DNA of 64,000 nt from Eubacteriales bacterium (GCA_045660185.1 JAZRDI010000101.1:17723-81722), one strand, 5' to 3'. Counted from the first letter of the stretch, positions 21,958 through 63,236 are shown. Notes: generated by a model not told the origin, from the letters alone. A program made the numbers and translations.

Positions 21958-22584
21958 TTAGTTGAAGTCGTGATCGGGCAATTCGGTTGCGTCAGATTTA
22001 ACGTCACCGCATTCGGTACACTTGTTGTTTTCATCGAAGTTGTGCTCAACCTTAGGTGTTGTCTGAGTTGCTACGTAGTTGCAATCAAGACACTTGTGAG
22101 CCTGTATACCGGTAACAGTACAATCAGCCTCAGTCTCGGTGTACCAATCTCCGTAAGTTACGTGAACGTGAACCTGCTTACAAGCAATGCAAGTATCACC
22201 GTCGGGATTCAATTCTGCATCAATTTTGTAGTTGTGGCCAAGAGCGGGGATTTCCTCGTATGTGTTATAAACACATCTGGTACACTTCTGATAAGCCTTG
22301 TATCCGGGCTCAACGCAGTTGGGGTCAAGTCCCTCAACGTTCTTGAGCTCATGGCCGAGAGCGGGAATCGTCTTGGTTTCTGTGTGATTGCATCCGTCAG
22401 CGGTACAAGTTCTAACCTCTTTACCATCGTTGATACAGTCAACGGTAACGATAACCTTCCACTCACCCATAGTATGAGTATGTACGGCATCATCGCCACC
22501 CTGACCGTTACCGCACGAGGAAAGTGCGAACACAGACGCGCAAATAAAAACGGTTGCCATTAATAAAACTAAAATCTTTTTCAA
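21958..22584 (-). CDS. Cys-rich lipoprotein with repeated C...C-x2-C...PALGH modules
   Basis: TTG start 9 nt after a GGAGG. Lipobox LSSC. Thirteen further Cys in the mature part and two IPALGH repeats. Confidence 0.7.
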   Translation of the reverse strand: MKKILVLLMATVFICASVFALSSCGNGQGGDDAVHTHTMGEWKVIVTVDCINDGKEVRTCTADGCNHTETKTIPALGHELKNVEGLDPNCVEPGYKAYQKCTRCVYNTYEEIPALGHNYKIDAELNPDGDTCIACKQVHVHVTYGDWYTETEADCTVTGIQAHKCLDCNYVATQTTPKVEHNFDENNKCTECGDVKSDATELPDHDFN

Positions 22585-25162: not shown

Positions 25163-25191
25163 TTGACATATTACAAAAAGTGTTTTATAAT
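25163..25191 (+). promoter_or_regulatory. sigma-A-type promoter for uxuA
   Basis: TTGACA (25163-25168), 17-nt spacer, TATAAT (25186-25191). Confidence 0.65.
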
Positions 25192-25230: not shown

Positions 25231-26286
25231 ATGAACATGAAAATGTCTTTCCGTTGGTACGGAGAAAGCGATCCTATTTCGCTTGAGTATATTTCTCAAA
25301 TTCCCGGTATGCGTTCCATCGTATCTGCGGTATACGATGTAAAGCCCGGTGAGGTATGGGGCGAGGATAGCCTTAAGAAAATGAAGGAACAGTGCGAAGC
25401 TCACGGTCTTGTTTTTGACGTTGTTGAGTCCATTCCCGTTCACGAAGATATAAAGCTTGGTCGAGGAAAGGTTGACGAGCTTCTTGAGGTTTATTGCGAG
25501 AATATCAGAAGATGCGCAAAGTATGGCGTTAAGTGCGTTACCTATAACTTCATGCCTGTATTTGACTGGACACGTACCCAACTCGATAAGAAGCATCCCG
25601 ATGGCTCAACAAGCCTTGTTATGTACTGGGACCAGATGAGAGGTCTTGATCCCCTTAAGGACGATATTCATCTTCCCGGTTGGGATTCAAGCTATACGCA
25701 AAGCGAAGTTCGCGAGCTTATCACCGCTTACGGTGAAATTGGCGAAGAGGGACTTTGGAAGAACCTTGAGAAATTCTTGAAGAAGGTTATTCCCGTAGCA
25801 GAGGAGTGCGGCGTAAGAATGGCAATTCATCCCGATGATCCGCCATACCCCATCTTCGGACTTCCCAGAATCATCACCTGCGAAGCTAATCTTGATAGAT
25901 TCCTTAAAATTGTTGACAGCCCCGCTAATAGCCTTTGCCTTTGCACCGGCTCACTCGGTTGCGCCGCTACCAACGATATAGTTAAGATGGTTCGTAAATA
26001 CGCAGAAATGGATAGAATCGCATTTATGCACATTCGTAACGTTAAGCTTATGGATGACGGATCGTTCGAGGAAAGAGCGCATCTCTCTTCCTGTGGCTCT
26101 CTTGATATGTACGAGATAGTAAAAGCTCTCGTAGATAACGGCTTCGACGGATATGTTCGTCCCGACCACGGAAGAATGGTTTGGGGTGAAACCGGTAAGC
26201 CGGGATATGGACTCTTTGACAGAGCTCTCGGCGCTACCTATATCAACGGTCTTTTCGAGGCTCTTGAGAAGAACGCTAAAAAGTAA
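25231..26286 (+). CDS. uxuA: mannonate dehydratase
   Basis: [12 protein letters not shown] matches the UxuA N-terminus (M..FRWYG). The ATG at 25231 lies 8 nt after AAGGAG. The ORF-track start at 25180 lies inside the promoter. Confidence 0.9.
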
Positions 26287-26295
26287 GGAACAAAA

Positions 26296-26829
26296 ATGAG
26301 AGTTTTAAAGAAAATAGCCCTCTTTATCCTATTGGCATCAACGTGCCTCTCAACTCTCGCCGCTTGTGGCGGAGAGAAGAGCATTTACGGCGGTGACGAA
26401 GATGCCGCGGTGTACGATCCGTACGATAATATTTTAAAGGATCCGGTTGATACGGGAGCTTTAATATCGGTTGCGGGAAAAACGTTTGTTTTCGACAGTA
26501 TAGATATAAGGACTGCAAACGCGGAAAAAGAGGTTACTGCGGGCAATTCCTTAAAGAAGCTATATCGCAATTCTTGCTTTAGATTTACCGCCGAGAATAA
26601 GGTTTTATTCGAGGAAGGAGCTGCCGATGACGAATACTTCTTCGTTATGAACGAAAGCGAAGGCGTAAGAGCGGGAAACGTTCTTACCGTGAAGCACACG
26701 AATAGCGCGGGCGTAGAGTATGACGTAAGATTTGAGATTCACGAGGACAAGATCTACGTTATCCACAATGGACATACTTATGACCAAGAAGGCGTTTTTT
26801 CGACTTTAACGTTTGTATTGAAAAAATAA
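26296..26829 (+). CDS. hypothetical lipoprotein
   Basis: 177 aa with lipobox LAAC. Starts 9 nt after the uxuA stop. Confidence 0.6.
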   Translation: MRVLKKIALFILLASTCLSTLAACGGEKSIYGGDEDAAVYDPYDNILKDPVDTGALISVAGKTFVFDSIDIRTANAEKEVTAGNSLKKLYRNSCFRFTAENKVLFEEGAADDEYFFVMNESEGVRAGNVLTVKHTNSAGVEYDVRFEIHEDKIYVIHNGHTYDQEGVFSTLTFVLKK

Positions 26830-26873
26830 TTACAAAAGGATAATTCGAATTTTTGATCTCGAGGTGAAGCTAT

Positions 26874-29633
26874 ATGAAAAGAATAGTTTACATTTTGATG
26901 GTTTTATCACTTGTATTCGCTATGGCGTTATCCTTGTTCTCTTGCGATAACCTTCCAATTACCGGTGGGGAAAGCGATGAAGTCTCAAACACAGACGGTG
27001 AAAATAAAGAGAATTTAAATAGCGAAAATAAGGACGACGGAAAAACTGATAACGATAGCGAGGGCGATGAAAAAAACGAAACGGTTTGCCCTGCTTGCAA
27101 GCGGCCTGCCGAAAAACCTCACGATGTGTGTGTGAAGTGCAGTGAATATATATGCATAGGCGACCACAGTAAATGTTACGGTTACGATTTGTGCTATTGC
27201 GGCGGTGGATATGATCAAGGTAAGCATTATGTTCACGGAAAATGCTCCGAATGTGAAAAATGGACTTGTGAGCACCCTGTTTGCGAGTATTGCGAGCAAT
27301 ATATTCATTGTGACACATTTTGCGATCTAAAGCTTTGTAAAGGCGGACCGGATTGCACCGAAGACTGCAATATTTACAGCGGTGAAAAATGCACAAATTA
27401 CGTAACTTGCGAGCGCCATTCGTGCGAGGAATCGCATATGCATAACAGTTGTGACCGTTGCGGTAAAGTAGGAATAATTTGCGACTTCCATAAAAACGTT
27501 CATAACCGCATATGTCCCGTATGCAACCTTGCGGATTGTCAGGTGGACCCATATGAGCCTCACAAGGAGTGCGAGATTCTTATGAAAGCTTGTCCTTCTT
27601 GCGGTGCCGATTATATGCGCGATGAGCATCGATGTGGCATTTGTCAAGATGGGTATATCTGTGACAAAGACGGCGGTCACGGTGAGTGTTGTAAGATTTG
27701 CGGAGGCCCGCTATGCATGAAGGATGCGCATGTTAGCTGCGTACAGGTTTGTCCCGGATGCTCAATGCCGAATGAAAATCACGGTCAGTGCGGCTTGTGC
27801 AACGGTTATCTCTGCGTTGAAAATCACAGTATCTGCGGTTTTTGCGGTGATTATCTTTGCGTAGGTAATCACGGTATTTGTGAGGTATGTCAGAATAATC
27901 TCTGTGCCGGAGATCACGAGTTCTGTAAATCGGGGGATGATTATAGACATTGTGCGCAGTGCGGTGAAACTGTAAACAAGGCAATGTATTGTTACGATTG
28001 CAACGTGTGTGATAATTGTTGTAAGTGTTCTATGGTATGCCCCGGATGCTACGTTAAGTATAAATACGAGGATTGCTGTCCCGATTGTATGAGATGCGAG
28101 TCCTGTTGTTATTGTTTGTTCTTCTGCGAAAAATGTGAAATTCATCAGAATATTCATGTGAAATGTAACGTTTGCGGTTATTGCCTCTCTTGTTGTTCAG
28201 GACACAGTGGCGTAGGCGGAGGCAATAGTTCGAATCTTCATCCGCATGCTATGACAGATTTTAATCCAAACTGTGAGACATACGCTGCGAACAGTCATTA
28301 CTATTGCTTCGAATGTGATGCGATAATCGTCAGAATATTCGATGCTGCAGGTGTCTTCTTTGAGGATATTACTTGTCCGTATTGTGTAAAGGGCGATGGC
28401 TATGGCGGCTGCAATCATACGAGTGAAGGACTTCGTATGATTGATTCCGATCCTTGCGGTACGGGTGCTCATTACGTATGCGATTACTGCTCAAAGCTTT
28501 TTAAGTATGATGAAACCTCTATAACGTTGTTTGTGGAGTGTCAGAAATGCATTTATGGTGAAAATTATTGCGAATCTTGCAATTCTTACGCAGAAAACCG
28601 TTGTTACGATTGTTATATGTGCTTTAACTGCTGTTCTTGCATTGATGCAAGCGATTTAACAATTTACTGTCCAAAGTGCAGAAGCAGCGTATCTTACAAT
28701 GTAGGAATGGCGGCGGACTGCATAAACGGTGGCTTTGAAAGCACTTACACGTGTTATGGCTGCGATTATACTTATATAATTGTCGATGGCACTCACGTTG
28801 AATGTAGAGATCCTATGATAAATCCGTTGGGACATAATGATTCTAATGGCGACTATGTCTGCGATAATTGTCAGAAGCTTTATAGTAATGAGTTTTGTGT
28901 AGCATGCGGAGATGCAGACAACGGTTTGTATCACGGCTGTGAGCATTATTACTTTGAAGCTGTTAAAGCATTTACGTGGTATGGTGTCAGCGTCAAGCAT
29001 ACGAATGACGGTTATTCTATAAAAATATCGGTATCTTTGAATTCGAAGACAAGTGGAACGATTTACTATTATCTTAAGAATAATGACTTGCCCGATTACG
29101 TTGAAATTGCTCGCATTACTTGTGACGTAACCTCTGTTTCAGGCAGTCCTTACGTCTTTAAATATACTCCTACTAATGTGTGCGTATTGCAGAGAAATGT
29201 CCTCGATTATGTAAATTACGGATACGTAAGCAGCCTTGAATTTGACGCTAATACTGTGTCATATATTATGTTCACGAACGTAAGCGGATATGACGGAGTT
29301 GATCAGACAACGTATAACGATCAATTGATTGCATCTGTTTTGAACCTTCCTTTTGAAACGTGTGACGATTGTTATGGCGTTAAGGCCGTTGGTAATCACG
29401 GTGTTTGTAAAGCAGAGGAATGCGGAAAGAATACGTGCGCAGGACATATTCACGGTGTTTGCGACCATGAAAACGCTTATCAAACGGATGTCACCGTGTG
29501 TGGCGGTGCCGGAAATCATTACTATTGCCCGAGCTGCAATAAATTCTTGATGGCAATGCCGTTAGCTTGCGATAAGCTTATATTTGAGGTTTGTCAAATA
29601 TGTAGTGATAACATCCCTTTTAAGCAGGAATGA
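26874..29633 (+). CDS. giant cysteine-rich lipoprotein (about 119 Cys in 919 aa), unknown family
   Basis: RBS GAGGTG. Lipobox LFSC at residues 21-24. Acidic linker at residues 25-70, then dense CxxC arrays with conserved His. Confidence 0.75.
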   Translation: MKRIVYILMVLSLVFAMALSLFSCDNLPITGGESDEVSNTDGENKENLNSENKDDGKTDNDSEGDEKNETVCPACKRPAEKPHDVCVKCSEYICIGDHSKCYGYDLCYCGGGYDQGKHYVHGKCSECEKWTCEHPVCEYCEQYIHCDTFCDLKLCKGGPDCTEDCNIYSGEKCTNYVTCERHSCEESHMHNSCDRCGKVGIICDFHKNVHNRICPVCNLADCQVDPYEPHKECEILMKACPSCGADYMRDEHRCGICQDGYICDKDGGHGECCKICGGPLCMKDAHVSCVQVCPGCSMPNENHGQCGLCNGYLCVENHSICGFCGDYLCVGNHGICEVCQNNLCAGDHEFCKSGDDYRHCAQCGETVNKAMYCYDCNVCDNCCKCSMVCPGCYVKYKYEDCCPDCMRCESCCYCLFFCEKCEIHQNIHVKCNVCGYCLSCCSGHSGVGGGNSSNLHPHAMTDFNPNCETYAANSHYYCFECDAIIVRIFDAAGVFFEDITCPYCVKGDGYGGCNHTSEGLRMIDSDPCGTGAHYVCDYCSKLFKYDETSITLFVECQKCIYGENYCESCNSYAENRCYDCYMCFNCCSCIDASDLTIYCPKCRSSVSYNVGMAADCINGGFESTYTCYGCDYTYIIVDGTHVECRDPMINPLGHNDSNGDYVCDNCQKLYSNEFCVACGDADNGLYHGCEHYYFEAVKAFTWYGVSVKHTNDGYSIKISVSLNSKTSGTIYYYLKNNDLPDYVEIARITCDVTSVSGSPYVFKYTPTNVCVLQRNVLDYVNYGYVSSLEFDANTVSYIMFTNVSGYDGVDQTTYNDQLIASVLNLPFETCDDCYGVKAVGNHGVCKAEECGKNTCAGHIHGVCDHENAYQTDVTVCGGAGNHYYCPSCNKFLMAMPLACDKLIFEVCQICSDNIPFKQE

Positions 29634-29663: not shown

Positions 29664-29710
29664 ATACCCCTAAAATGCAAACTATTAGTAGCATTTTAGG
29701 GGGTATTTGC
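29664..29710. terminator. bidirectional terminator between convergent genes
   Basis: ATACCCCTAAAATGC (29664-29678) pairs with GCATTTTAGGGGGTAT (29691-29706). Confidence 0.7.
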
Positions 29711-29789: not shown

Positions 29790-30836
29790 TCAAAAAACTT
29801 CTTTTATCCATTTGACAGTTTCAAAAAGACCTTTATCGAATTCTATTTCGGGCATCCAAGAAAGCTCGTTTTTGATTTTCGAAGAGTCGATAGAATATTT
29901 TCTATCGTGCCCCTTTCTGTCTTCAACGAATTCGACGTTGTCGGTAATTTCGTTCGCAAAGCTTTCGGTTATATCGCTTCGTATGTTTGATTCATTTGAC
30001 TGATATTCATCGTCTTCGGATTCGATTTCATCAATAAGCGCCTTGCGTATCGCGGTGGAAATCTTTAAAACGAGTTCAAGATTTGAGATTTCCGTATCCG
30101 AGCCGACGTTGTATATGTTTCCGCATTTTCCGCCAAAAATGATTTTCTCGATAGCTCTGCAATGATCCAAAACGTGTATCCAATTGCGAACGTTCATTCC
30201 ATCTCCATACACTTTAGCGCGCGCTCCAAAGATTAGAAGCTCTGCTGTGTGAGGAATCATCTTTTCGCTATTCTGGTACCTTCCGTAATTGTTTGAGCAT
30301 CTTGATATAGTAACGTCAAGACCATGCGTTCTGTGATATGCGAGAACGAGCATATCTGCCGCCGCCTTGCTTGCGCTATAAGGAGAACTTGGAGCGAGCG
30401 GCGAGCGCTCATCAAAACGCTCGTTACTGTCTAGCGAAACGTCACCGTACACCTCGTCGGTAGAAATTTGATGGAATCGCTTGACACCGTATTTTAGCGA
30501 AGCGTCGAGCAAAACCTGCGTTCCGAGAACGTTCGTCTTAACGAAAATCTCCGCGCTCTCAATCGAGCGGTCAACGTGCGTTTCGGCAGCGAAATTCACC
30601 ACAACGTCAGCTTTCTCGCGTTCGAATATCTTAAAAACAGCCTCTCTGTCCGCAATATCTGCGCGATAGAACGTAAATTTCTCGTTCACCGCCATACGTC
30701 GCGATAATTCTTCTGTATTCGCAGCGTAAGTCAGCGCATCGATACCAACAACTAAATCCTCGGGATGCTTTTCAACCCAGTAATCCAAAAAATTAATACC
30801 AATAAACCCGGCACATCCGGTAATAACAATTTTCAT
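29790..30836 (-). CDS. rfbB: dTDP-glucose 4,6-dehydratase
   Basis: 348 aa. TGCAGFIG Rossmann motif, YSASKAA catalytic motif and a DRKGHDRKYSID C-terminal block. Confidence 0.85.
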   Translation of the reverse strand: MKIVITGCAGFIGINFLDYWVEKHPEDLVVGIDALTYAANTEELSRRMAVNEKFTFYRADIADREAVFKIFEREKADVVVNFAAETHVDRSIESAEIFVKTNVLGTQVLLDASLKYGVKRFHQISTDEVYGDVSLDSNERFDERSPLAPSSPYSASKAAADMLVLAYHRTHGLDVTISRCSNNYGRYQNSEKMIPHTAELLIFGARAKVYGDGMNVRNWIHVLDHCRAIEKIIFGGKCGNIYNVGSDTEISNLELVLKISTAIRKALIDEIESEDDEYQSNESNIRSDITESFANEITDNVEFVEDRKGHDRKYSIDSSKIKNELSWMPEIEFDKGLFETVKWIKEVF

Positions 30837-31978
30837 TTAATTCCCAACGCCCTCAATAGTTCTGTTGTTTGGTTGCTTTTTTCACTTGTTAGTGTTGGTG
30901 TGGACTTAGCTTCTTGAATAGATTTTTTTATTTTATCTTTTTTAAAAAGTCTAAACCAGCGCTTAATTTGATAAAAAGGAAATAGCCATTTTCTTTTTTC
31001 CAATTTTGGATATGTCAATTTTAATTGATCGTAAGATAAAAAAATTCTTGACATAATATACGAGAACTTACCACCGATGATAGCTTGTTGTACTGCTACT
31101 CGGTTTTCCACAGTTCCGTATGTACCGCCACTTAAAATAAACTGCTCTATTTGTTTTGAAATCGGTGTATGAGGTTCATTACCTATCCATACCCTCGATA
31201 GTTGTTCAGCGGACTTTTCAAATTGCAACAAACCGGCCTCTTCGAGCAGATTATCTCTTTTTTGCTTATCAAAGTCGCATTTGTTATTTAACACCCATAA
31301 ATCGATAAAGGGTCTAATGCCACATCCACCATTTATAAAATGTTTCGCCATATGTGCGATGTGATAAAAGTAATACATTTCGTCTGTCATCTCGTGATGG
31401 AACGAGTGATTTGCAACTGGCGAGGAGCGTTCCCATACGGTAGATAATACTTTATCTGCAGATTCATTTGCATCGTTTAAAGTACGATGAAGTTCGATGT
31501 GGGTTTTAGATGGCGTATAAAAAGATATTTCGTAATTCCAATCGGAAGCGTACGTGTATCCCAACTCATCCGTAAAAACTTTTTTTACCTTTTCAACATC
31601 GGAATTTTCAATTAGAATATCAATATCACAACTTGTTCTTAACCATGGTTCTTTATAATATTTTCTTATGACGGAGCCTTTTAGTGGGATGAATTTTATC
31701 TGTGCGTTTTCTAATGTATTTGATATTGTCTCGAGATCATAGTTAATGTTGACATAGCGGAACGCCGCTATATTCATTGTTTGCTCAAATGCTCGTTGAA
31801 TATCTTCGTCTATCTTATTTTCAGAAGCTTTTAGACCGTATCCAATCAGATGTGCCAAGTCGTGTTTTTTTGACAATTTGAACAGCTTTTCCCATGAATC
31901 TCTATCAAGGTTAAGTACCGCCTTTTCGGTATTTTCTTTTAGGGAATATTCGAAAAGGTGAAACATTGTATTTATCAT
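30833..31978 (-). CDS. hypothetical protein, possibly of the uncharacterised nucleotidyltransferase family
   Basis: 381 aa. 4-nt overlap with rfbB and 1-nt overlap with wzx. The TSCDIDILI segment resembles a nucleotidyltransferase DxD strand. The call is tentative. Confidence 0.35.
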   Translation of the reverse strand: MINTMFHLFEYSLKENTEKAVLNLDRDSWEKLFKLSKKHDLAHLIGYGLKASENKIDEDIQRAFEQTMNIAAFRYVNINYDLETISNTLENAQIKFIPLKGSVIRKYYKEPWLRTSCDIDILIENSDVEKVKKVFTDELGYTYASDWNYEISFYTPSKTHIELHRTLNDANESADKVLSTVWERSSPVANHSFHHEMTDEMYYFYHIAHMAKHFINGGCGIRPFIDLWVLNNKCDFDKQKRDNLLEEAGLLQFEKSAEQLSRVWIGNEPHTPISKQIEQFILSGGTYGTVENRVAVQQAIIGGKFSYIMSRIFLSYDQLKLTYPKLEKRKWLFPFYQIKRWFRLFKKDKIKKSIQEAKSTPTLTSEKSNQTTELLRALGIK

Positions 31979-33387
31979 TACGATTTACTTCCTTTTAATT
32001 CGCTGAACAAATTTTTTAAGAATTTTATATTCACAACGGCAAATAGTAAAATAGCAATAGTGGACACAAGATAAATTTTTATTTCCAATGAAACAAGAAC
32101 AGCTTGTGTGATGAGAATGATTGAATTAATTACAAAACGCCCCAATTCAATTTTCATTTTTATAAATCGTGTAGCATCAATCATACGGATGGTACCTAAA
32201 AGAAAATACGCTACAAATGTGCCAAGAATAGCACCCCATAGTCCGATGTAATTAACAAATATTATGCTCACAACAACATTCGCAGTTGCACCGATTAATG
32301 TAGTTATCATATTATTGACTGATTTTTTTAATGCGCTATATAGTGAAACAAAGTATGATGAGATTGCTGAAAATGTAGCACTCGCCAATAATATAGGAAT
32401 GTATTTCCATGCTTCAACAAATGACTCTCCCACATAAACGGTCATTAACGGCTTTATGATAAGAATCAAGCCAATACTCATAGAAAATGCTACGAAAGAG
32501 AATGTGTTAAATATATTAGAATAAAATTTTGAATCGTTTGATGATTCAATTTCTTTGACAGAAGAAATTCCCCAAGATTGCTGGAAAATGGATATTAGAA
32601 CGTTTATCAAAGATGGAATTTTTGTGGCAACTGTGTATATTCCCAATACAGATGCACCAAGCACTAATTCAACTATTATTTTGTTTGCAGAATGTATAGC
32701 CCACCAAGAAACGTTGTTGAGAACAAGTGGTGCGGAAAATATCAACATTCGTTTCAACAACGGACGTGAAAATTTTGCCTTACGAATATCTTTAAATATT
32801 TTCCCAAAAACAAATATTCCTAATGCAGACACGAGATTTCCGATAATATTGGCAAAGACATATCCATCAATACCAAGAGGAATAATTACGATGAATAAAA
32901 CATTAGATAATGCCATTGCCAGTGTTTGAACAATGGATATTGTCGCATAGAGTTTATTTTGTTCTTTAGCTTTTATGTAATTTAATTCGATAATCATAAA
33001 GATATCTATGATTACATAAATACACAAATGCCACTTCCATTTTGCGATAGGCGCATATAATCCAATAAGAGGTGTTGCTAAAATAGTAACAATAGATCCA
33101 ACACCCCAAACAACTAGACTGCACAGTAAAACGTTTTCTTGCTTCTCATCCTTTGATAGACCAAATCTTATAACGGCATCGTGAATAACCAGACCTACAA
33201 ACGGAATTATAAATTGCGAAATGGTAAAAATTAAATCAGATATACCATATTCTTCTGTCGATAAGTAATTGGTGTATAACGGCACGAGTAAGAAAAGAAT
33301 CAATTTTGATCCGATTCCTCCAATTGCGAATATTAGCGTGTCGTTTAAAAGTTTTTTGTACTTATTCATAGTATATCCTACTACCAA
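31978..33387 (-). CDS. wzx: oligosaccharide flippase (Wzx, MOP superfamily)
   Basis: 469 aa, about 12-14 TM segments, N-terminus typical of polysaccharide flippases (LLNDTLIFAIGGIGSKLILFLLVPLYT). Confidence 0.75.
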   Translation of the reverse strand: MVVGYTMNKYKKLLNDTLIFAIGGIGSKLILFLLVPLYTNYLSTEEYGISDLIFTISQFIIPFVGLVIHDAVIRFGLSKDEKQENVLLCSLVVWGVGSIVTILATPLIGLYAPIAKWKWHLCIYVIIDIFMIIELNYIKAKEQNKLYATISIVQTLAMALSNVLFIVIIPLGIDGYVFANIIGNLVSALGIFVFGKIFKDIRKAKFSRPLLKRMLIFSAPLVLNNVSWWAIHSANKIIVELVLGASVLGIYTVATKIPSLINVLISIFQQSWGISSVKEIESSNDSKFYSNIFNTFSFVAFSMSIGLILIIKPLMTVYVGESFVEAWKYIPILLASATFSAISSYFVSLYSALKKSVNNMITTLIGATANVVVSIIFVNYIGLWGAILGTFVAYFLLGTIRMIDATRFIKMKIELGRFVINSIILITQAVLVSLEIKIYLVSTIAILLFAVVNIKFLKNLFSELKGSKS

Positions 33388-34541
33388 ACAAAGAATTTAA
33401 GAGAACTCAAAGATCCACGAGAACATGCTAATAATAACATTAAAACAGAGATGAAAGTAACGCATGAATTGAGATTCAAGGTTATTCCTTTTACAGTTTT
33501 AACTCGCGTATAAGCATTTTTGTATCTATTATCGTGACTTTGCAATGAGGTCATCAGTAATGGAATTGCGATAATCGGCAATGTGTAAGTTGTTATTCTG
33601 TGGAAAATAGTAAATTCATAGCAGAAGCACAAAGATATTACGAACAATGCAATTCCGTATAACATCCAAACGTTTAGCTTTATATTACTTTCTTTTATTA
33701 TGCTTGTTTTTCTAAAGAACAAACAAATAACTACTATTGAAGCTAAGATGGAAATAACGTATTCCCAAATATAAGAATATATATTTCCACTTAAATACGA
33801 GTCTACTTTGCCAAGTATTTCGTCTATAAATCCGCTAAAATAGCTAAATACAATTATAATACCGCCACTGAGTAAAACAGAATAAATGGTTTTCTTAAGA
33901 GCGGTCGTATTTTTATCAAATATTGAGATGAAGAAACGCGCTGCTATTAAAACTGCAGAGAATGAATGTATCAATGTTGCTATTAAGTATAGTGGGATAT
34001 GGAAAAATCGAAATTTTTTTTCGACATTTTCGCGGAAAAAGCAAAACGTCAAAAGCGAAACTCCCAACATACAACGTATGCCGGTAATAACAAACATATA
34101 ATTACCGGTTGACATGTAGAAGAGCAAGGTGATTGCTACATTTTTTCCGGATATTTGATTTTTTTGTGCAGTTTTTACGATGATATAAAATATACAATTG
34201 TAGCAAACAAAACTTATTAATGCGGGGAGTAATTGAGGTATTCCGGTTTTTCCTATAGCCCAATATAATATATTCGCTAATCCGATTTCGGAATTTAATA
34301 CTTGTTTTTTCCAAAGCTTCGAAAACGAATATTTACGGAAAGCTTCTACATATTCATTAATTCTGTACAGATCTGCGGTTTCGTATGGAATGTAGAAAAA
34401 AGCAAGCACAGAAAGGAGGATAGAATAAATAAACAAAGTTCTTTTTACGTTATTACAATTCTTGGTTACCAAAGAAAAGTAAACCATAATAAGTACTAAT
34501 GAGTATATACCGACACCTACGAGGCGCTCAAATAAAAACAT
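33381..34541 (-). CDS. wzy: putative polysaccharide polymerase (Wzy/EpsG-like)
   Basis: 386-aa polytopic membrane protein, very AT-rich, located between the flippase and a glycosyltransferase. Confidence 0.5.
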   Translation of the reverse strand: MFLFERLVGVGIYSLVLIMVYFSLVTKNCNNVKRTLFIYSILLSVLAFFYIPYETADLYRINEYVEAFRKYSFSKLWKKQVLNSEIGLANILYWAIGKTGIPQLLPALISFVCYNCIFYIIVKTAQKNQISGKNVAITLLFYMSTGNYMFVITGIRCMLGVSLLTFCFFRENVEKKFRFFHIPLYLIATLIHSFSAVLIAARFFISIFDKNTTALKKTIYSVLLSGGIIIVFSYFSGFIDEILGKVDSYLSGNIYSYIWEYVISILASIVVICLFFRKTSIIKESNIKLNVWMLYGIALFVISLCFCYEFTIFHRITTYTLPIIAIPLLMTSLQSHDNRYKNAYTRVKTVKGITLNLNSCVTFISVLMLLLACSRGSLSSLKFFVW

Positions 34542-35617
34542 TATAATTCTCCTAGATTTGCATATTTTCTATATGCTTTGATATTATCATTCGTAACTTT
34601 ATCCCATGTAAAGTTTTCGGATATTAATTTTTGGGTGTTTTTAGATTTTTCGGCAAAAAGTAAAGCTTGATCTGTGGCTTGCTTAATGCAATCGACTACG
34701 CTTTGAACATCTGTAGATGCAACCCATCCTGCATTATAGTTCTTTACGTAATTACCTAAAGTTGTTCCTTCGGTTATTAAACAAGGAATGCCGTAACCTA
34801 AAGCTTCCAAAATTCCCATAGGCATTCCCTCAAAGCGAGATGTTTGAATAAACACATCCGATTCAAACAACACCCTTTTTTTATCAGAACCGAACACACC
34901 GGGACTTAGTGTTACAATTTCGTTCAAAGCACGTTCAGCTATCATTCGTTCAACGTTAGCGTAACGGCCGTGATAATCGGGGCCGTAAATTCGGAGCTCG
35001 CATTTTCCTCTATAGGAAGAATCGAGTATTAGTTTAAATGCATCAAGCATTATATCGAGCCCTTTGTGAAAAGAATCCAATCGACCAACGTAAGTAAAGA
35101 TAATCTTTTCCGTGTTGAATGATTGTTTCTTTTCTACAGGAATTTCGCAGCCATTTGTTCCTACAAAATTTGTAACGCTCCAATTTGTTGATTCAAATTC
35201 GGTCTTTGATAAGCATTGGATAGCTTTTGCATTTTTGATGAATGGTTTGAAAAATAAATTTCCCACAATTTTTTTAATACGTTTTTTCTTTTGCGCTTCT
35301 TTCATCAAAGAACCATGGGGAACGATGATATATGGAACATTCTCTTTGCGTAACAATTTGGAAATTTTAATGTATTCCGGAGCGTAGACTTGGTGGAATA
35401 TAACAATATCTGGTTTACAAAACGGTTCACCAAGTGATTTTAACGTGAAAGAAGATGTATATGAAAAGTAGTTGGTGATTTCGTCGGGGTGATAATCACC
35501 CAAATTGAGAAGCCCAACGGTTTCATATTTGCTTTGTGTTTTTATATGCTCAGGAACAACCACACAAACTCCATTTGCCGGATTGTTACGTATTGTAGCT
35601 ATGTGTAAAATTACCAT
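34541..35617 (-). CDS. glycosyltransferase family 4 (GT-B)
   Basis: 358 aa. C-terminal E-x7-E region [21 protein letters not shown]. Confidence 0.85.
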
Positions 35618-35644
35618 ACATCCTCCGTGTGCTAATGCATAGAT

Positions 35645-36829
35645 CTATTTTTTGTAACGAATTTTTAACAATAGTTTTTTGATTTTTTTTGGAACGCTGT
35701 ATTTTAATTTTCCGATAAGAATTTGCTTTCTGTTACTCTTTTTAAAATTGCGCTGTATAGTTTCTGCCGGAAGCTTGTGATGCTCTTCTAACATATTGTT
35801 TCTATTGTAACGCGAGCGAGTTGGTGAAGTAAGTTGCTTGTTATATTTCGTTGCAATTTCCAATGAAACCTGATGTTTATGCAAGTTTAAATTTTTGAAT
35901 ATCTCTGTTGCCGCATTACTATTTAAAAGTACAAGCGAACATCCTTTTTCGGTGTTAAACGGAATATCAACGCCTTCCGCTCCCCAAAAATCTCCCAAGG
36001 TGAAATCTCCCGGTCTGTCTAAATTAGCATATTGACATGAATAGCAGCTATCTCTGTAAATTGAAGCGCCATGATAATAGTAGAAGTAGTAATAATTTGA
36101 GAAGTAATACTGCTTTTTCTCGTAGAGCTTGCTGTTTGACTTCTTAAAACTTGCAATTCCGGCAGCGCTCCAACCCGAGTTCTTTTTAGACCGGAAATTG
36201 TAATCGGTACATACTGCGCTTTCTTCTTTTTCCAAAAACTCTATAAATTTATCAAAATAAGCTTGTGAGGCTACACCATGACACACCAAGTCAACGGTAA
36301 GTAAATTCGTATAATCTTTTTGCAGATAATTTTTTAAGCCAGCAATTTGACAAGGCGTTCCGGAATACAAAACCTGTTTTCCCGCTTTGAGATCTGTTTC
36401 ACATTTTTTATATGTATCGCACGTATTGCTTTGCACATATTTTGAACCAAACAAAGCGGAAAGGGATGTTTTATTATCAATTCTGATGTGCGTAGCTTGC
36501 AGATGGTTGGTATATGCACAGCCGTATACGATACCGCCGTTGTTCAAAACATAAAGTGCTATTGCACCGAAGACACCACCACTGGTTGCTTGCATCAACA
36601 TATTATCCTCTGTGTTTGCACAAGCATACGCTGTGGGTGTATTAACTTTATTTACATGCTTTTCGATAGGGCAAACCTTGTCACACAAACCGCAATCTAT
36701 ACACTTTGTTGTATTTACGCTTGGATATAAAAATCCATTATCGTTATTTTTTAGTTCAATGCAATTTTCGGGACACTTTTGAATGCAAGCGCCACAAGCT
36801 GTACATTTCTCGTAGTTAACTTTAATCAT
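35645..36829 (-). CDS. coenzyme F420 hydrogenase/dehydrogenase beta-subunit-like 4Fe-4S protein
   Basis: 394 aa. Two ferredoxin motifs (CTACGACIQKCP, CIDCGLCDKVCP) followed by a FrhB/FdhB-like domain. Confidence 0.75.
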   Translation of the reverse strand: MIKVNYEKCTACGACIQKCPENCIELKNNDNGFLYPSVNTTKCIDCGLCDKVCPIEKHVNKVNTPTAYACANTEDNMLMQATSGGVFGAIALYVLNNGGIVYGCAYTNHLQATHIRIDNKTSLSALFGSKYVQSNTCDTYKKCETDLKAGKQVLYSGTPCQIAGLKNYLQKDYTNLLTVDLVCHGVASQAYFDKFIEFLEKEESAVCTDYNFRSKKNSGWSAAGIASFKKSNSKLYEKKQYYFSNYYYFYYYHGASIYRDSCYSCQYANLDRPGDFTLGDFWGAEGVDIPFNTEKGCSLVLLNSNAATEIFKNLNLHKHQVSLEIATKYNKQLTSPTRSRYNRNNMLEEHHKLPAETIQRNFKKSNRKQILIGKLKYSVPKKIKKLLLKIRYKK

Positions 36830-37928
36830 CGGATAACGCTCCTTTGAGATAATTTAGAGAATTATTACGCTTTTCACCGACTATTACATTAACTTTATTG
36901 AAGTCGATATGTTTGTTTGAAATCGTATTCAATTCAGAAAAATCATCGAGCACACGATCTTCTAAACCGTATTCCTTCATTAGCCATAAGAGTTTGTTTC
37001 TATTTGTGGCTTTTAGTTTTACAAACATCGCGGAATTGGTTACTATAGAAAGCACCGCACCATGGAATGTGTCTGTTATCACTTCTTCGGCGCCCACGAA
37101 CCAATCAAATATATCGAGAGGGTCAACGTTGATATTTTTGTCGCACCATTTATGATAGAAACCAACGCTATATAATTTCAATCCTTTTGCTTTGGCGTAA
37201 GCTCTAATCTTTTCCACATTCTCGCTTTCGTTCATTGTGTTGTCATAGGAATAAACAAGAATATATTTTTCTTTAGTTTCTTTTTTGCTTTCTCTCGCGA
37301 AATTTATTTGATCGACATAGCCATACAGAAGAACAGGGTCGCAAACAATAGGAACATCTCTATCGGTGAAGTGTTTTACGATAGACTGTGAGTTTTTGTC
37401 TCTAACAGAACAATTTGAAATGTGAGTTAAGCCAGCTTCAACGAATTCTTCTGCATACATATCACTGATAAACTCTTTCGTTGTTGAACCAAAACTCGCT
37501 GCGTATGATATAACTTTTTTGCAGGGAATACCCATTCCATAAAACCACGGATTAAGCCCTGGCTCTATACTGAATATCTCGTCACTTCCAATTACCACAA
37601 GCTCTAAGTCTTTAGCGTGTGAATAATATTCTCCAATCAAATTTTGATTGGAACGGAAGTTTTTTAAGATGGAACGCTTTTTCATGTTGTATATTGTTCT
37701 GCCGATACCTTTTTGAATAAGATACTTAAAATAAGTTGGAATTGAAGCTAACGTGATGTTGTATTTTTTTGAGGCGTTTTCTGCCATAAAGTCATAATTT
37801 TTTCGGTATCTTAAAGCTTTAGCTTCGTATCCGAGTTCGCCGAGTACTTTTGAAAGAGCATACATTTGTAGTTGAGCTCCGTGATTGTGTACATCATAAT
37901 GAGTTATGATACCGGTCTTCTTTTGCAT
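36822..37928 (-). CDS. polysaccharide pyruvyl transferase family protein
   Basis: 368 aa. N-terminus GIITHYDVHNHGAQLQ and the C-terminal TDTFHG motif of the pyruvyl transferase family. 8-nt overlap with the downstream Fe-S gene. Confidence 0.7.
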   Translation of the reverse strand: MQKKTGIITHYDVHNHGAQLQMYALSKVLGELGYEAKALRYRKNYDFMAENASKKYNITLASIPTYFKYLIQKGIGRTIYNMKKRSILKNFRSNQNLIGEYYSHAKDLELVVIGSDEIFSIEPGLNPWFYGMGIPCKKVISYAASFGSTTKEFISDMYAEEFVEAGLTHISNCSVRDKNSQSIVKHFTDRDVPIVCDPVLLYGYVDQINFARESKKETKEKYILVYSYDNTMNESENVEKIRAYAKAKGLKLYSVGFYHKWCDKNINVDPLDIFDWFVGAEEVITDTFHGAVLSIVTNSAMFVKLKATNRNKLLWLMKEYGLEDRVLDDFSELNTISNKHIDFNKVNVIVGEKRNNSLNYLKGALSDD

Positions 37929-37929
37929 T

Positions 37930-38796: not shown

Positions 38797-38806
38797 TTTT
38801 TACCTC

Positions 38807-47038: not shown

Positions 47039-47137
47039 GGTTATATTTTATAAATACTTTATACATATCATTATTTAGTTATAATAAGTCCCAAGGCTTA
47101 CTATATAAAACCAAAATATAACGAAAAGGAGAAAAGA

Positions 47138-48040: not shown

Positions 48041-48089
48041 TTTAAAAAACGCCAAAAAAACCTATTAAAAAGAAGGGAAGGAGGAGCGT

Positions 48090-48953: not shown

Positions 48954-49013
48954 AGAATTAAATTCTTTATATAAAAAACAAAACAAAAATTTTTACTTAT
49001 GAGGTGAAAACAA

Positions 49014-49748: not shown

Positions 49749-49778
49749 TTTTAGATACTGATTCAATCTGAAAACAAA

Positions 49779-49812
49779 TATCTCCCTTCTCCCGAGAGGG
49801 GGAGGGGAGATA
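49779..49812 (+). terminator. GC-rich intra-locus hairpin (possible partial terminator or attenuator)
   Basis: TATCTCCCTTCTCCC-GAGA-GGGGGAGGGGAGATA, a 15-bp stem including G-U pairs, 31 nt after the subunit-2 stop. The T-tract is weak. Confidence 0.5.
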
Positions 49813-49916
49813 AAATTTTAATAAAGCTTTAGTATTTTTGAGTTTTATCTCAACTATTAATTACCGCATTTTTAAAAGGAAATCTTTATTTGTAATTTAA
49901 ACAACAGGAGGACTTT

Positions 49917-63169: not shown

Positions 63170-63236
63170 TTTTATCACCTCCATACAATAAACGAAAATA
63201 CGAAACTTTAAACTACGTTTAAAATACCTCATAATC

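What the first reader, a model, noticed from the sequence alone, without database searches (positions are those of the whole stretch)
26874..29633. 919-aa lipoprotein with about 119 cysteines arranged in repeated CxxC/His modules, unknown family
Seen in the sequence:
- A lipobox (LSLFSC) and an acidic linker (residues 25-70).
- Two Cys-dense regions (residues 72-443 and 467-689).
- A Cys-poor ~140-residue domain with only two Cys (residues 690-828, nt 28941-29357).
- A final Cys-rich tail.
- My hand count is about 119 Cys (~13%).

The motif C-x2-C-x4-C-x-[GE]-[DN]-H-x2-C occurs at residues 86-101. It then occurs three times head-to-tail with shared cysteines (CGLCNGYLCVENHSICGFCGDYLCVGNHGICEVCQNNLCAGDHEFC, nt 27789-27926). 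A 13-residue knot C-Y-D-C-x2-C-x-N-C-C-x-C occurs twice (residues 373-385 and 577-589).

Inference: these are arrays of zinc-ribbon or treble-clef-like metal sites, or disulfide knots, on the cell surface of an anaerobe. I cannot assign any known family.
Basis: partly seen in the sequence, partly recalled or inferred. Interest (0 to 1): 0.7.

Follow-up and report, generated by a model that had tools for sequence, protein, structure and literature searches.

The report
Cysteine-packed, probably zinc-studded surface lipoprotein
A gut Clostridia bacterium encodes a membrane-anchored surface protein in which every eighth residue is cysteine, arranged in about thirty small modules that probably each hold zinc and together form a stiff stalk with a small head; the family is tiny and undescribed, and what it binds is unknown.

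Summary
ORF 26874-29633 (+) encodes 919 aa with 119 Cys and 38 His, a lipobox and an acidic linker, and all the motifs sit where stated. They exceed composition-matched chance.

The gene is real. It has a Shine-Dalgarno site and a terminator. dN/dS is 0.25 against a 95% relative. A 51% orthologue keeps every Cys and the same gene order.

No Pfam, NCBIfam, PADLOC, PHROG or PDB family matches. An exhaustive search of 1.84 billion proteins found about seven relatives, all in gut Oscillospirales metagenomes. One is a complete copy of the ectodomain fused to a 4479-aa dockerin/LRR surface protein.

The protein is built from three mini-modules:
- A: C-x2-C-x7-H-x2-C-x2-C-x4-C-x3-H-x2-C
- B: C-x2-C-x9-C-x2-C-x2-C-x2-CC-x-C
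- C: ribbon-like

Cys and His are the two most conserved residue types. Every weak external match is a zinc ribbon. Module C resembles the predicted Zn-bridged "periscope" domains of the Thomasclavelia ramosa IgA protease, published in 2025.

Best reading: a Zn-stabilised, variable-length stalk displaying a constant C-terminal head. Metal binding and the ligand are inferred, not shown.

The parts
25163..25191 (+). Consensus sigma-70-type promoter (TTGACA-17-TATAAT, 12/12). It probably drives uxuA, lip177 and the Cys-rich gene together.
   Evidence: A hairpin ending in TTTT lies just upstream, after the GH2 gene. No terminator-like hairpin or good promoter is seen in the 9-nt and 44-nt gaps downstream.
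25231..26286 (+). uxuA (mannonate dehydratase), first gene of the putative operon. No functional link to the finding is shown.
   Evidence: Pfam UxuA, E=4.6e-136. True start is the ATG at 25231, after an AAGGAGA Shine-Dalgarno site.
26296..26829 (+). 177-aa lipoprotein of unknown family, immediately upstream. Wherever I found the Cys-rich gene at this locus (four loci), and next to a different module-A lipoprotein in L085, a homologue of this gene sits directly upstream.
   Evidence: Lipobox LAAC. Homologues lie upstream of the Cys-rich gene in L084, L001 and L002, and upstream of a different module-A lipoprotein in L085. In L004 it is present without the Cys-rich gene. No Pfam or PDB match.
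26861..26866 (+). Shine-Dalgarno sequence GAGGTG, 7 nt before the ATG.
   Evidence: Read directly from the sequence.
26874..29633 (+). The gene: a 919-aa Cys/His-rich lipoprotein.
   Evidence: dN/dS is 0.25 against the 95% relative. All Cys are kept in the 51% orthologue.
26874..26945 (+). Sec-type signal peptide with lipobox L-F-S-C24. The n-region has K-R, not a twin arginine.
   Evidence: The lipobox is conserved in P0001, P0002, P0005, P0006 and P0007.
26946..27083 (+). Acidic, low-complexity linker (residues 25-70, pI 4.05). Presumed spacer through the cell wall.
   Evidence: Its length and sequence vary among homologues.
27087..27926 (+). Stalk part 1 (residues 72-351): module A and its 15-residue units. 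Canonical copies are at 72-101 and 293-351 (one head plus three units, 12 Cys + 4 His). A two-unit array lies at 240-289. More degenerate Cys/His units fill 107-233.
   Evidence: A 45-nt tandem repeat at 27773-27877 has 75% matches. The module A profile's best PDB match is the zinc ribbon of ribosomal protein bL32, E=0.011.
27951..28196 (+). Stalk part 2 (residues 360-441): three tandem copies of the 29-residue module B, C-x2-C-x(8-9)-C-x2-C-x2-C-x2-CC-x-C.
   Evidence: In 21 copies, seven Cys are invariant and an eighth nearly so. P0003 has 10 copies.
28197..28271 (+). Gly/Ser/His-rich hinge (residues 442-466).
28272..28940 (+). Ribbon-like modules (type C) at 467-504, 513-559 and 599-689, with a fourth module B at 566-589. 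From about residue 505-513 onward this is the constant core shared by all family members.
   Evidence: AF2 places short beta hairpins here at low confidence. Weak matches to TFIIS/RPA12, Spt4 and RPB9 zinc ribbons, E=0.03-0.07. Residues 612-634 align to the IgA-protease ZBD-type repeat, hhalign E=1e-4 and probability 58%.
28941..29357 (+). Cys-poor beta-rich domain (residues 690-828) ending in the conserved N-L-P-F motif. Presumed functional head.
   Evidence: AF2 gives up-and-down strands with pLDDT 60-80 for 702-824. No significant fold or sequence match; the weak top fold hits are small beta barrels.
29361..29471 (+). C-terminal Cys/His cluster (residues 830-866), a module-A derivative with an almost invariant G-H-x-H-G-x-C-[DE]-H-[ED]-[NY] signature.
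   Evidence: Invariant columns in A3. P0012 and P0013 share NLPF-x2-C-x2-C-x-G....
29499..29603 (+). Terminal ribbon-like module (residues 876-910), C-x8-C-x2-C-x(18)-C-x2-C.
   Evidence: Resembles the N-terminal zinc ribbon of RPB9, whole-sequence E=0.034.
29667..29702 (+). Hairpin terminator between the convergent genes. A 12-bp stem, then UAUUUG.
   Evidence: -20 kcal/mol, z=-3.4.

Best explanation
**What it is.** The gene encodes a Sec-exported, lipid-anchored surface protein of a Gram-positive gut anaerobe (Oscillospirales). After an acidic linker, nearly the whole ectodomain is a chain of very small modules of three types: A, B and ribbon-like C. Their only strongly conserved residues are Cys and His.

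**How it most likely works.** After export, each group of four ligands captures one metal ion, most probably Zn(II). About 113 conserved Cys plus about 24 conserved His would give roughly 30-35 sites. The metal replaces a hydrophobic core and locks the modules into a stiff, extended, protease-resistant rod.
- The membrane-proximal part (about residues 72-505) is a stalk of variable length.
- The C-terminal ~400 residues are a constant head: ribbon modules, a Cys-poor beta domain and a His-rich Cys cluster. The stalk holds this head away from the cell to bind an unknown partner.

**Status of each step.**
- Shown: the anatomy, the conservation pattern, the export signals, purifying selection and the family distribution.
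- Inferred: metal binding, the identity of the metal, the rod shape and the binding role of the head.
For: **Real, selected gene.**
- It has a Shine-Dalgarno site, a lipobox and a terminator.
- dN/dS is 0.25.
- Gene order is conserved in L084, L001 and L002.

**Extracellular.**
- The lipobox is conserved in the homologues.
- Residues 69-911 recur at 40% identity as the C-terminal cassette of a 4479-aa protein with a signal peptide, dockerin, Flg_new and BspA-LRR domains.
- Proteins that share module A or C carry Flg_new, LRR_5, choline-binding or Big_2 domains.

**Metal rather than disulfide.**
- In alignment A2, mean identity across homologues is 0.91 for Cys and 0.69 for His. The next type, Gly, is 0.52, and most others are 0.2-0.35.
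- Module A has exactly 6 Cys + 2 His invariant in 20 copies from eight proteins.
- Each complete array holds 4(n+1) ligands, where n is its number of 15-residue units.
- P0005 has one extra unit of 3 Cys + 1 His at the 240-289 array.
- Pro follows the first Cys in 9 of 43 CxxC motifs, against a 3.2% background. This is the classic metal-knuckle signature.
- Every sub-threshold external match is a zinc-binding fold: bL32 ribbon E=0.011; Spt4, RPA12 and RPB9 ribbons E=0.03-0.07; Trim66 B-box E=0.003; DZR.
- The signal peptide is Sec-type, so pre-assembled cofactors are not expected.

**Published precedent.**
- The related repeat hits the T. ramosa IgA protease at E=7e-10, in and just before its ZBD1 and within ZBD2.
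- Those domains are predicted to be small beta sheets bridged by Cys/His zinc sites. That protein has 24 Cys, and no disulfides were observed in its experimental structures or predicted models.
- CTD2 behaves in SAXS as a fully extended rod and was interpreted as a 'periscope' domain (PMC12237041, PMC12415215).

**Variable stalk, constant head.**
- The distance from anchor to core is 105 aa in P0006 and about 488 aa in the window protein, P0002 and P0005. The core is 407-511 aa as counted to the C-terminus, about 410-460 aligned.

**Fast-evolving surface protein on a fixed scaffold.**
- Against L001 it is 51% identical, while the other genes I compared around it (GH2, lip177, the 208-aa lipoprotein, orf331, the epimerase, UxuA) are 69-99% identical. 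All Cys are kept.
Against: - No metal or thiol measurement exists for this protein or any relative.
- Even the IgA-protease zinc sites are predicted and 'pending experimental validation'.
- AF2 failed on the full protein (pLDDT 31) and was weak on the core (pLDDT 54), so no site geometry could be inspected.
- The matches to zinc ribbons are individually not significant. Short Cys-rich profiles tend to find Cys-rich targets.
- The link between module C and the IgA-protease repeat is modest. hhalign gives 58% probability over 22 columns, and the window's own profile does not hit 9qa6.
- All complete arrays found have an even Cys count, so parity does not exclude disulfides.
- No ligand, partner or regulatory clue was found for the head. 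Co-transcription with uxuA is unexplained.
Confidence: 0.5

Rival explanations
1. **Disulfide-knotted ectodomain.** After export the cysteines pair into many short-range disulfides, as in EGF-like or furin-like repeats, and these stabilise the rod. His is conserved for other reasons.
For: - High Cys with many CxxC motifs is also typical of disulfide-rich extracellular proteins.
- All complete module-A arrays have even Cys counts of 6, 12, 18 or 30.
- A Kazal-type disulfide domain appeared among the weak hits, E=0.13.
- Some Clostridia are reported to have putative disulfide-forming enzymes (abstract of PMC12453122).
Against: - His is co-conserved at fixed spacing in every module A.
- One orthologue has gained a unit of 3 Cys + 1 His.
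- Mature P0002 has an odd number of Cys, 117.
- The host is a strict-anaerobe lineage living in a reducing gut.
- In the only related protein with experimental structures, 24 Cys are present and no disulfides were observed (PMC12237041).
Confidence: 0.12
2. **Metal buffer or scavenger.** The roughly 30 sites are the function rather than the scaffold. The protein would be a surface reservoir or sink for Zn, or for toxic soft metals such as Cd, Cu or Hg. It would resemble a giant extracellular metallothionein, or the Zn-handling histidine-triad lipoproteins of streptococci.
For: - The ligand density is very high: about 137 conserved Cys/His.
- Module B contains the CC, CxC and CxxC patterns typical of metal-thiolate clusters.
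- The lipoprotein location matches that of known metal-handling lipoproteins (my own knowledge of Pht and AdcA proteins).
Against: - Module order and spacing are strictly conserved over 30-50% identity, and the modules have ribbon-like beta hairpins. This is what structural sites look like, not a flexible chelator.
- No metal transporter or metal regulator is recognisable among the neighbouring genes I scanned (about 19.5-34.5 kb) or in the related loci.
- A constant Cys-poor head domain would be unnecessary.
- The gene is absent from the closest GTDB species.
Confidence: 0.12
3. **Redox-active metal chain.** The Cys4 and Cys3His sites bind iron (rubredoxin-like) or assemble Fe-S clusters outside the cell. 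They would form an electron conduit or a thiol/sulfide redox buffer on the surface.
For: - CPxC knuckles and Cys4 sites are shared by rubredoxins.
- CxxCxxCxxCC loosely resembles ferredoxin motifs.
- Fe(II) is available in anoxic gut contents (my own knowledge).
Against: - There is no twin-arginine signal.
- There is no CxxCH haem motif and no CxxCxxCxxxCP motif.
- There is no Fer4 or rubredoxin Pfam hit even at E<=10.
- His-containing CCHC-type sets are typical of Zn, not of rubredoxin.
- No redox partner gene was found nearby.
Confidence: 0.04
4. **Not a functional gene.** The ORF would be a degenerating or chance reading frame in repeat-rich DNA.
For: - The exact sequence is not in the public gene index.
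- Several long antisense ORFs overlap it.
Against: - dN/dS is 0.25.
- The frame is intact in four independent assemblies at 95%, 51% and 30% identity, and in a fused copy at 40%.
- It has a Shine-Dalgarno site, a lipobox and a terminator.
Confidence: 0.02

Closest known systems
ZBD1/ZBD2 (also called CTD2/CTD4, 'metal-associated periscope domains') of the Thomasclavelia ramosa IgA protease (PDB 9QA6; PMC12237041, PMC12415215)
   Same: - Both are extracellular parts of a gut Firmicute surface protein.
- Both are chains of very small beta-sheet units whose conserved residues are Cys and His in sets of four.
- In the protease, the sites are predicted to be structural Zn, no disulfides were observed, and SAXS of CTD2 shows a rod.
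- Both show the order 'zinc modules, beta domain, zinc modules'.
- A profile of the related repeat hits the protease at E=7e-10. That profile was built from the neighbouring 208-aa lipoprotein, P0003 and P0014. Window residues 612-634 align to it.
   Different: - The protease has 8 observed or predicted sites in a 1234-aa enzyme. Here there are about 30 or more sites, and they make up almost the whole protein.
- Modules A and B are absent from the protease.
- The anchor is an N-terminal lipid, not a C-terminal sortase motif.
- There is no catalytic domain.
- The window's own profile does not reach 9qa6.
Classical C4 zinc ribbons (ribosomal protein bL32; TFIIS/RPA12/RPB9; Spt4/RpoE'')
   Same: - Two CxxC knuckles, often CPxC, separated by a beta hairpin of 9-25 residues.
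- The first 20 positions of module A read CPxCG-x5-H-x2-C-x2-C-x2-Y, almost as in Bacillus bL32.
- Residues 599-634, 663-678 and 876-910 resemble TFIIS-type, Spt4 and RPB9 ribbons.
   Different: - The matches are below significance (E=0.01-0.07).
- The known ribbons are single intracellular domains that bind nucleic acids or proteins. Here they are fused head to tail, carry extra ligands (H, C, H, C in module A; four more Cys in module B), and are extracellular.
Giardia variant-specific surface proteins (VSPs) and other high-cysteine membrane proteins
   Same: - A surface protein of an anaerobic gut organism with many CXXC motifs.
- VSPs are reported to resist proteases, pH and temperature (abstracts: PMC6341118, PMC3656445).
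- The ~12% Cys figure for VSPs is from my own memory.
- This protein evolves faster than its neighbours on a fixed Cys scaffold.
   Different: - VSPs are eukaryotic, and no sequence relation was detected.
- VSPs have a C-terminal transmembrane anchor and belong to a large, switchable gene family. I saw a single gene per locus here and no switching machinery.
Periscope proteins (SasG/Aap G5-E repeats) of staphylococci
   Same: The concept is shared: rod-like stalks of variable length, lacking a normal hydrophobic core, that project a functional region from a Gram-positive surface (discussed in PMC12415215). Stalk length varies from 105 to about 488 aa in this family.
   Different: - G5-E repeats have no Cys. 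Their Zn sites use His and acidic residues and mediate dimerisation.
- They are sortase-anchored.
- They have no sequence similarity to this protein.

Membership tests
Bacterial lipoprotein (Lgt/Lsp substrate) | N-terminal signal peptide with a positive n-region, a hydrophobic h-region and a lipobox [LVI][ASTVIF][GAS]C. | tested here: met
   The sequence reads M-K-R..., then a hydrophobic core, then L-F-S-C24. A lipobox is kept in P0001, P0002, P0005, P0006 and P0007.
Bacterial lipoprotein (Lgt/Lsp substrate) | Diacylglyceryl modification of the Cys, and cleavage by signal peptidase II. | not testable with these tools
   This needs globomycin sensitivity, palmitate labelling or mass spectrometry.
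Zinc ribbon (C4 or C3H, two-knuckle fold) | Two CxxC-type knuckles separated by a beta hairpin. | tested here: met
   The spacings C-x2-C-x(9-25)-C-x2-C open every module A, B and C. CPxC is enriched about 6.5-fold.
Zinc ribbon (C4 or C3H, two-knuckle fold) | Significant sequence or fold similarity to known ribbons. | tested here: inconclusive
   The best E-values are 0.011 (bL32), 0.034 (RPB9) and 0.059 (RpoE''/Spt4). No Pfam ribbon family passes its cut-off. The AF2 models are too poor to compare.
Zinc ribbon (C4 or C3H, two-knuckle fold) | Stoichiometric tetrahedral Zn binding. | not testable with these tools
   This needs ICP-MS, EXAFS or a structure.
IgA-protease-type zinc-binding / 'metal-associated periscope' domain (T. 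ramosa ZBD1/ZBD2) | Sequence relationship to the ZBD repeat. | tested here: inconclusive
   - The repeat profile A9 hits 9qa6_A at E=7e-10.
- Window residues 612-634 align to A9 with hhalign E=1e-4 but only 58% probability.
- The window's own profiles do not hit 9qa6.
- P0014 and P0015, which carry canonical repeats, matched the family profile at E=6e-6 and 4e-4.
IgA-protease-type zinc-binding / 'metal-associated periscope' domain (T. ramosa ZBD1/ZBD2) | Extracellular location on a Firmicute. | tested here: met
   It has a lipobox. A fused copy sits in a dockerin/LRR protein. The lineage is Oscillospirales.
IgA-protease-type zinc-binding / 'metal-associated periscope' domain (T. ramosa ZBD1/ZBD2) | Small beta sheets bridged by 2Cys+2His or 3Cys+1His sites, with an extended rod shape. 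| not testable with these tools
   AF2 confidence was too low and model coordinates could not be inspected. SAXS or a structure is needed.
Giardia VSP / high-cysteine membrane protein | About 11-13% Cys, mostly in CXXC motifs. | tested here: met
   12.9% Cys and 43 overlapping CxxC in the mature protein.
Giardia VSP / high-cysteine membrane protein | C-terminal transmembrane helix with a conserved cytoplasmic tail (CRGKA). This feature is from my own knowledge. | tested here: not met
   The protein ends ...CSDNIPFKQE with no hydrophobic segment. The anchor is N-terminal.
Multihaem c-type cytochrome | CxxCH haem-attachment motifs. | tested here: not met
   There are no CxxCH motifs.
Exported Fe-S protein (ferredoxin-type, Tat-dependent) | A twin-arginine signal and CxxCxxCxxxCP motifs. 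| tested here: not met
   The n-region is K-R and the motif is CxxCxxCxxCC. No Fer4 hit for this protein at E<=10.
Metallothionein | A small protein, roughly 30% Cys, with almost no aromatic residues or His and no regular secondary structure. This feature is from my own knowledge. | tested here: not met
   919 aa, 66 Tyr, 27 Phe and 38 His, with predicted beta hairpins.
Any curated Pfam, NCBIfam, PADLOC or PHROG family | A score above the family threshold. | tested here: not met
   The whole protein has no hit at E<=1 in Pfam and NCBIfam, or at E<=0.1 in PADLOC and PHROGs. Pfam hits to its segments at E<=10 are all below cut-off.

The most novel reading that the evidence does not exclude
The roughly 30 closely spaced Cys4/Cys3His sites are not inert zinc rivets. 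They would be a working metal-thiolate array on the outside of a strict anaerobe. It could be iron-loaded (rubredoxin-like) and carry electrons along the stalk, or it could act as a reversible sink for metals, sulfide or oxidants at the cell surface. Either would be an extracellular redox or metal-handling device built without haem and without the Tat pathway.
Probability: 0.05. Interest if true: 0.9.

Novelty: new variant of a known kind. Interest (0 to 1): 0.55.

Why it matters
**A different building principle.** Secreted proteins of Gram-positive bacteria are usually built from Ig-like, LRR or other core-packed repeats. Aerobic Firmicutes even avoid cysteine in exported proteins (PMC2823432). 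If the reading is right, this protein shows the opposite strategy in a strict gut anaerobe: a ~100-kDa ectodomain held together almost entirely by metal-thiolate sites.

**It extends a very recent idea.** In 2025, two small predicted 'zinc-binding periscope' domains were proposed in one IgA protease. This protein would extend that idea to an entire protein and add two new mini-module types, A and B.

**Testable consequences.**
- The surface architecture of some gut commensals would depend on Zn supply. That is relevant to host nutritional immunity.
- The 15-30-residue modules could serve as compact, protease-resistant building blocks for protein engineering.

**Limits.** The family is very rare, with about seven clusters among 1.84 billion representatives. 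Its ligand is unknown. The immediate biological reach is therefore narrow.

Tried and rejected
**Family and structure searches on the whole protein**
- Pfam, NCBIfam, PADLOC, PHROGs and PDB sequence searches found nothing.
- AF2 on the full protein with 3 sequences gave pLDDT 31, which is unusable.
- AF2 on residues 505-919 with 7 sequences gave pLDDT 54. Only the beta domain was marginal.
- Foldseek against PDB found nothing at E<0.1. The weak top hits are small beta barrels (ToxS, VtrC, lipocalins) and are a hint only.

**Searches for more relatives**
- The first word-index protein search found only the two close orthologues, P0001 and P0002. Two more added nothing new: profile A3 returned only P0004 and P0008, and a two-module profile A6 returned nothing.
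- The GTDB genome scan with A1 and the JGI metagenome scan with A3 found no relatives.
- A degenerate DNA pattern for module A found one JGI contig, L085.

**Hypotheses tested and dropped**
- The Cys-poor domain is not related to the upstream 177-aa lipoprotein (hhalign probability 0.2%). Neither has a PDB relative.
- Multihaem cytochrome, ferredoxin/Tat, metallothionein and VSP membership were each tested and failed on a defining feature.
- Functional coupling to uxuA or GH2 is not supported. GH2 ends in its own terminator. The closest GTDB species keeps uxuA-lip170 but lacks the Cys gene.
- A Cys-parity argument against disulfides is weak, because all complete arrays have even Cys counts.

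**Literature**
- Searches for bacterial Cys-rich CXXC surface proteins returned only Giardia VSPs and C. difficile exosporium proteins.

Full report
**1.

The ORF at 26874-29633 (+) translates without stops to 919 residues. It has 119 Cys (12.9%) and 38 His. The other 53 ORFs I translated from the window average 1.46% Cys.

C-x2-C-x4-C-x-[GE]-[DN]-H-x2-C occurs at residues 86, 306, 321 and 336. CYDC..C.NCC.C occurs at 373 and 577.

I shuffled the mature sequence 2000 times, keeping its extreme composition.
- CxxC: 43 observed against 15.3 expected.
- The 16-residue unit: 5 against 0.06.
- Module B: 4 against 0.0015.
- No shuffle reached any of these three observed values.

So the order is non-random even given the composition.

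**2. It is a real, expressed-looking gene**

- A GAGGTG Shine-Dalgarno site sits 7 nt before the ATG.
- A 12-bp hairpin (-20 kcal/mol, z=-3.4) followed by U-rich sequence lies between it and the convergent downstream gene.
- Upstream there is a perfect TTGACA-17-TATAAT promoter at 25163-25191. It precedes uxuA (true start 25231), a 177-aa lipoprotein gene and then this gene, with gaps of 9 and 44 nt. The three are probably co-transcribed. The GH2 gene before them ends in its own hairpin.
- Against the 95%-identical relative P0001 (locus L084), dN/dS is 0.25. There are 118 Cys-Cys columns, 5 of them with synonymous TGT/TGC changes.

**3. Relatives**

A word-index search of 5.8 billion proteins found only P0001 (95%) and P0002 (51%). 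An exhaustive HMMER search of 1.84 billion cluster representatives found 14 proteins.

Those that share the family architecture:
- P0005 (969 aa, 30% identity, full length).
- P0006 (639 aa, short form).
- Fragments P0004, P0007 and P0008.
- P0003, a 4479-aa protein. Its residues 3468-4329 align to window residues 69-911 at 40% identity.

P0003 also carries a signal peptide, a dockerin, a Flg_new domain and BspA-type LRRs. The whole ectodomain is therefore a transferable extracellular cassette.

The other hits share only one module type each.
- P0009 to P0013 are lipoproteins or surface proteins that share module A arrays. They carry Flg_new or LRR_5 domains.
- P0014 and P0015 share module C. 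They carry DUF285, LRR, choline-binding or Big_2 domains.

Gene order GH2 / uxuA / small lipoprotein / Cys-rich gene is kept in L084, L001 and L002.

UxuA-based loci place the lineage among uncultured gut Oscillospirales. The best match is 94% to a MAG labelled 'uncultured Ruminococcus sp.' In that genome uxuA and the small lipoprotein are present but the Cys-rich gene is not.

A 1.4-kb JGI contig (L085) has the same uxuA-lipoprotein pair followed by a different lipoprotein. That protein has at least seven tandem module-A-type copies directly after its lipobox.

Against L001 the gene is the fastest-evolving of those I compared around it.

| Gene | Identity to L001 |
|---|---|
| Cys-rich gene | 51% |
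| lip177 | 69% |
| GH2 | 72% |
| 208-aa lipoprotein | 76% |
| Epimerase | 77% |
| orf331 | 82% |
| UxuA | 98.6% |

Every Cys is nevertheless kept.

**4. Anatomy**

| Residues | Feature |
|---|---|
| 1-24 | Sec-type signal peptide with lipobox L-F-S-C |
| 25-70 | Acidic linker, pI 4.05 |
| 72-351 | Module A and its units |
| 360-441 | Three copies of module B |
| 442-466 | Gly/Ser/His hinge |
| 467-689 | Ribbon-like modules (type C), plus a fourth module B at 566-589 |
| 690-828 | Cys-poor beta domain ending in N-L-P-F |
| 830-866 | Module-A derivative with an almost invariant G-H-x-H-G-x-C-[DE]-H-[ED]-[NY] |
| 876-910 | Terminal ribbon |

*Module A.* The canonical form is C-P-x-C-G-x5-H-x2-C-x2-C-x2-Y-x-C-x-G-D-H-x2-C. 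It has 6 Cys and 2 His invariant in 20 copies from eight proteins. Its second half, C-x2-C-x4-C-x(3-5)-H-x2, can repeat. Each complete array contains 4(n+1) ligands.

*Module B.* In 21 aligned copies, seven Cys are invariant and an eighth is nearly so.

*Variable and constant parts.* Across the family, the part from about residue 505 to 910 is constant. The membrane-proximal part varies from 105 aa (P0006) to about 488 aa.

**5. Metal sites or disulfides?**

In the nine-sequence alignment, Cys is the most conserved residue type (mean identity 0.91) and His the second (0.69). Gly is next at 0.52, and most others are 0.2-0.35. Only five Cys are lineage-specific: 272, 401, 750, 770 and 899.

Further points that favour metal sites:
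- P0005 has one extra unit of exactly 3 Cys + 1 His in the 240-289 array.
- Pro follows the first Cys in 9 of 43 CxxC motifs, against a 3.2% background. This is the classic metal-knuckle signature.
- Every weak external match is a zinc-binding fold. Module A matches the bL32 ribbon ([20 protein letters not shown], E=0.011). The type C modules match Spt4/RpoE'', RPA12/TFIIS-type and RPB9 ribbons (E=0.03-0.07). Sub-threshold Pfam hits are a B-box and double zinc ribbons.
- The signal peptide is not Tat-type. There are no CxxCH or ferredoxin motifs.

None of this is a measurement. The matches are individually insignificant, and Cys parity does not discriminate. I therefore hold 'metal, probably Zn' at roughly two in three.

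Which four ligands form each site is unresolved. A sequential CCHC scheme uses every ligand of every array. The bL32 resemblance instead suggests a C4 ribbon plus an H-C-H-C site in the single module.

**6. A published relative**

The neighbouring 208-aa lipoprotein (21958-22584, minus strand) and P0003, P0014 and P0015 carry a ~40-residue repeat: GH...C-T-E-x-G-x5-C-x2-C...IPALGH.

A profile of that repeat hits PDB 9QA6, the Thomasclavelia ramosa IgA protease, at E=7e-10. The matches are at residues 861-882, 939-978 and 1105-1131. The last two lie in the published ZBD1 (879-1008) and ZBD2 (1101-1171); the first straddles the start of ZBD1.

What the papers report (for PMC12237041; for PMC12415215):
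- ZBD1 and ZBD2 are predicted to be small beta sheets joined by tetrahedral 2Cys+2His or 3Cys+1His zinc sites.
- The protein has 24 Cys, and no disulfides were observed in the experimental structures or predicted models.
- The same domains, under the names CTD2 and CTD4, are called 'metal-associated periscope domains'. SAXS shows isolated CTD2 is a fully extended rod.

Window residues 612-634 align to the repeat profile with hhalign E=1e-4 but only 58% probability. The window's own profiles do not reach 9qa6. I call module C 'probably related'. Modules A and B have no counterpart there.

**7. Structure prediction**

AF2 gave pLDDT 31 for the whole protein and 54 for residues 505-919. Only the beta domain (702-824) reached pLDDT 60-80, as up-and-down strands. 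Foldseek against PDB found nothing below E=0.1. The weak leading hits are small beta barrels. The fold of the head is therefore unknown.

**8. Mechanism proposed**

The protein is exported unfolded through Sec and lipid-anchored at C24. The acidic linker crosses the wall. Modules fold around metal ions captured outside the cell, giving a stiff, core-less, protease-resistant rod. The variable-length stalk presents the constant C-terminal head to an unknown partner.

- Shown: signals, modules, the conservation pattern, extracellular associations, and the split into variable and constant parts.
- Inferred: metal binding, rod shape and a binding function.

Rivals, with my confidence:
- A disulfide-knotted ectodomain (0.12).
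- A metal reservoir or sink (0.12).
- A redox-active iron array (0.04).
- A non-functional ORF (0.02).

**9. Novelty and score**

No curated family covers the protein. The family is extremely rare, and modules A and B appear undescribed. The principle of Cys/His zinc-bridged mini-domains forming a stalk on a gut Firmicute was proposed in 2025 for one IgA protease. I therefore rate this a new variant of a known kind, not a new category.

Interest is 0.55. The protein is striking in degree, with about 30 predicted sites and 13% Cys in an exported Firmicute protein. This contrasts with the cysteine exclusion described for aerobic Firmicutes; the same paper notes anaerobes are more tolerant (PMC2823432). 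Against that, the family has a narrow distribution, no known ligand and no experimental support yet.

Noticed in passing
window 21958-22584 (-): A second Cys-rich lipoprotein (208 aa, 15 Cys) is made of ~40-residue 'GH...C-T-E-x-G-x5-C-x2-C...IPALGH' repeats. A profile that includes these repeats hits the predicted zinc-binding domains of the T. ramosa IgA protease (PDB 9QA6) at E=7e-10. No Pfam family covers the repeat, although P0003 contains many copies.
   Followed up: partly
window 25231-26286; L001 8365-9417; L002 2305-3357: UxuA is 98.6% identical between the window and two loci whose flanking genes are only 30-82% identical. This is either unusually strong constraint or recent exchange of this one gene.
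   Followed up: no
L085 1-1405 (JGI contig JAEIGA010891691.1): The locus has the same layout: the end of uxuA, then a 175-aa homologue of the small lipoprotein. It is followed by a different lipoprotein with at least seven tandem module-A-type copies directly after the lipobox. This slot seems to host varied Cys-rich lipoproteins.
   Followed up: partly
L004 11059-14125: The closest GTDB species by UxuA (94%) keeps uxuA and the small lipoprotein. It has a 219-aa membrane protein where the Cys-rich gene would be. Next comes a convergent 602-aa BspA-LRR lipoprotein with a short Cys/His-rich N-terminus.
   Followed up: partly
window 26296-26829 (+): A 177-aa lipoprotein of unknown family sits immediately upstream of a Cys-rich lipoprotein in five loci. 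It is unrelated to the Cys-poor domain of the target (hhalign probability 0.2%) and has no PDB or Pfam match.
   Followed up: partly
window 60138-63376 (-): Four tandem paralogous lipoprotein genes of about 236 aa share the leader 'ILALSLSIG.LT.C' and are 57-84% identical in a mosaic pattern. This suggests a locally expanding surface-protein family.
   Followed up: partly
window 45517-56291 (+): A run of same-strand genes for secreted or membrane proteins includes proteins of 630 and 1212 aa with no Pfam match and almost no Cys. Several smaller ones have similar N-terminal 'K-Y-x-x-S' leader sequences.
   Followed up: no
L086 3-13932: The gene upstream of the 4479-aa P0003 ends in a sequence that looks cohesin-like to my eye. 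P0003 itself starts with a dockerin. This would place the fused copy of the ectodomain in a cellulosome-like assembly.
   Followed up: no
window 29790-39634 (-): A convergent polysaccharide-biosynthesis cluster (epimerase, NTP_transf_5, flippase, EpsG-like polymerase) abuts the gene. Its content differs between the window, L001, L084 and L002.
   Followed up: no
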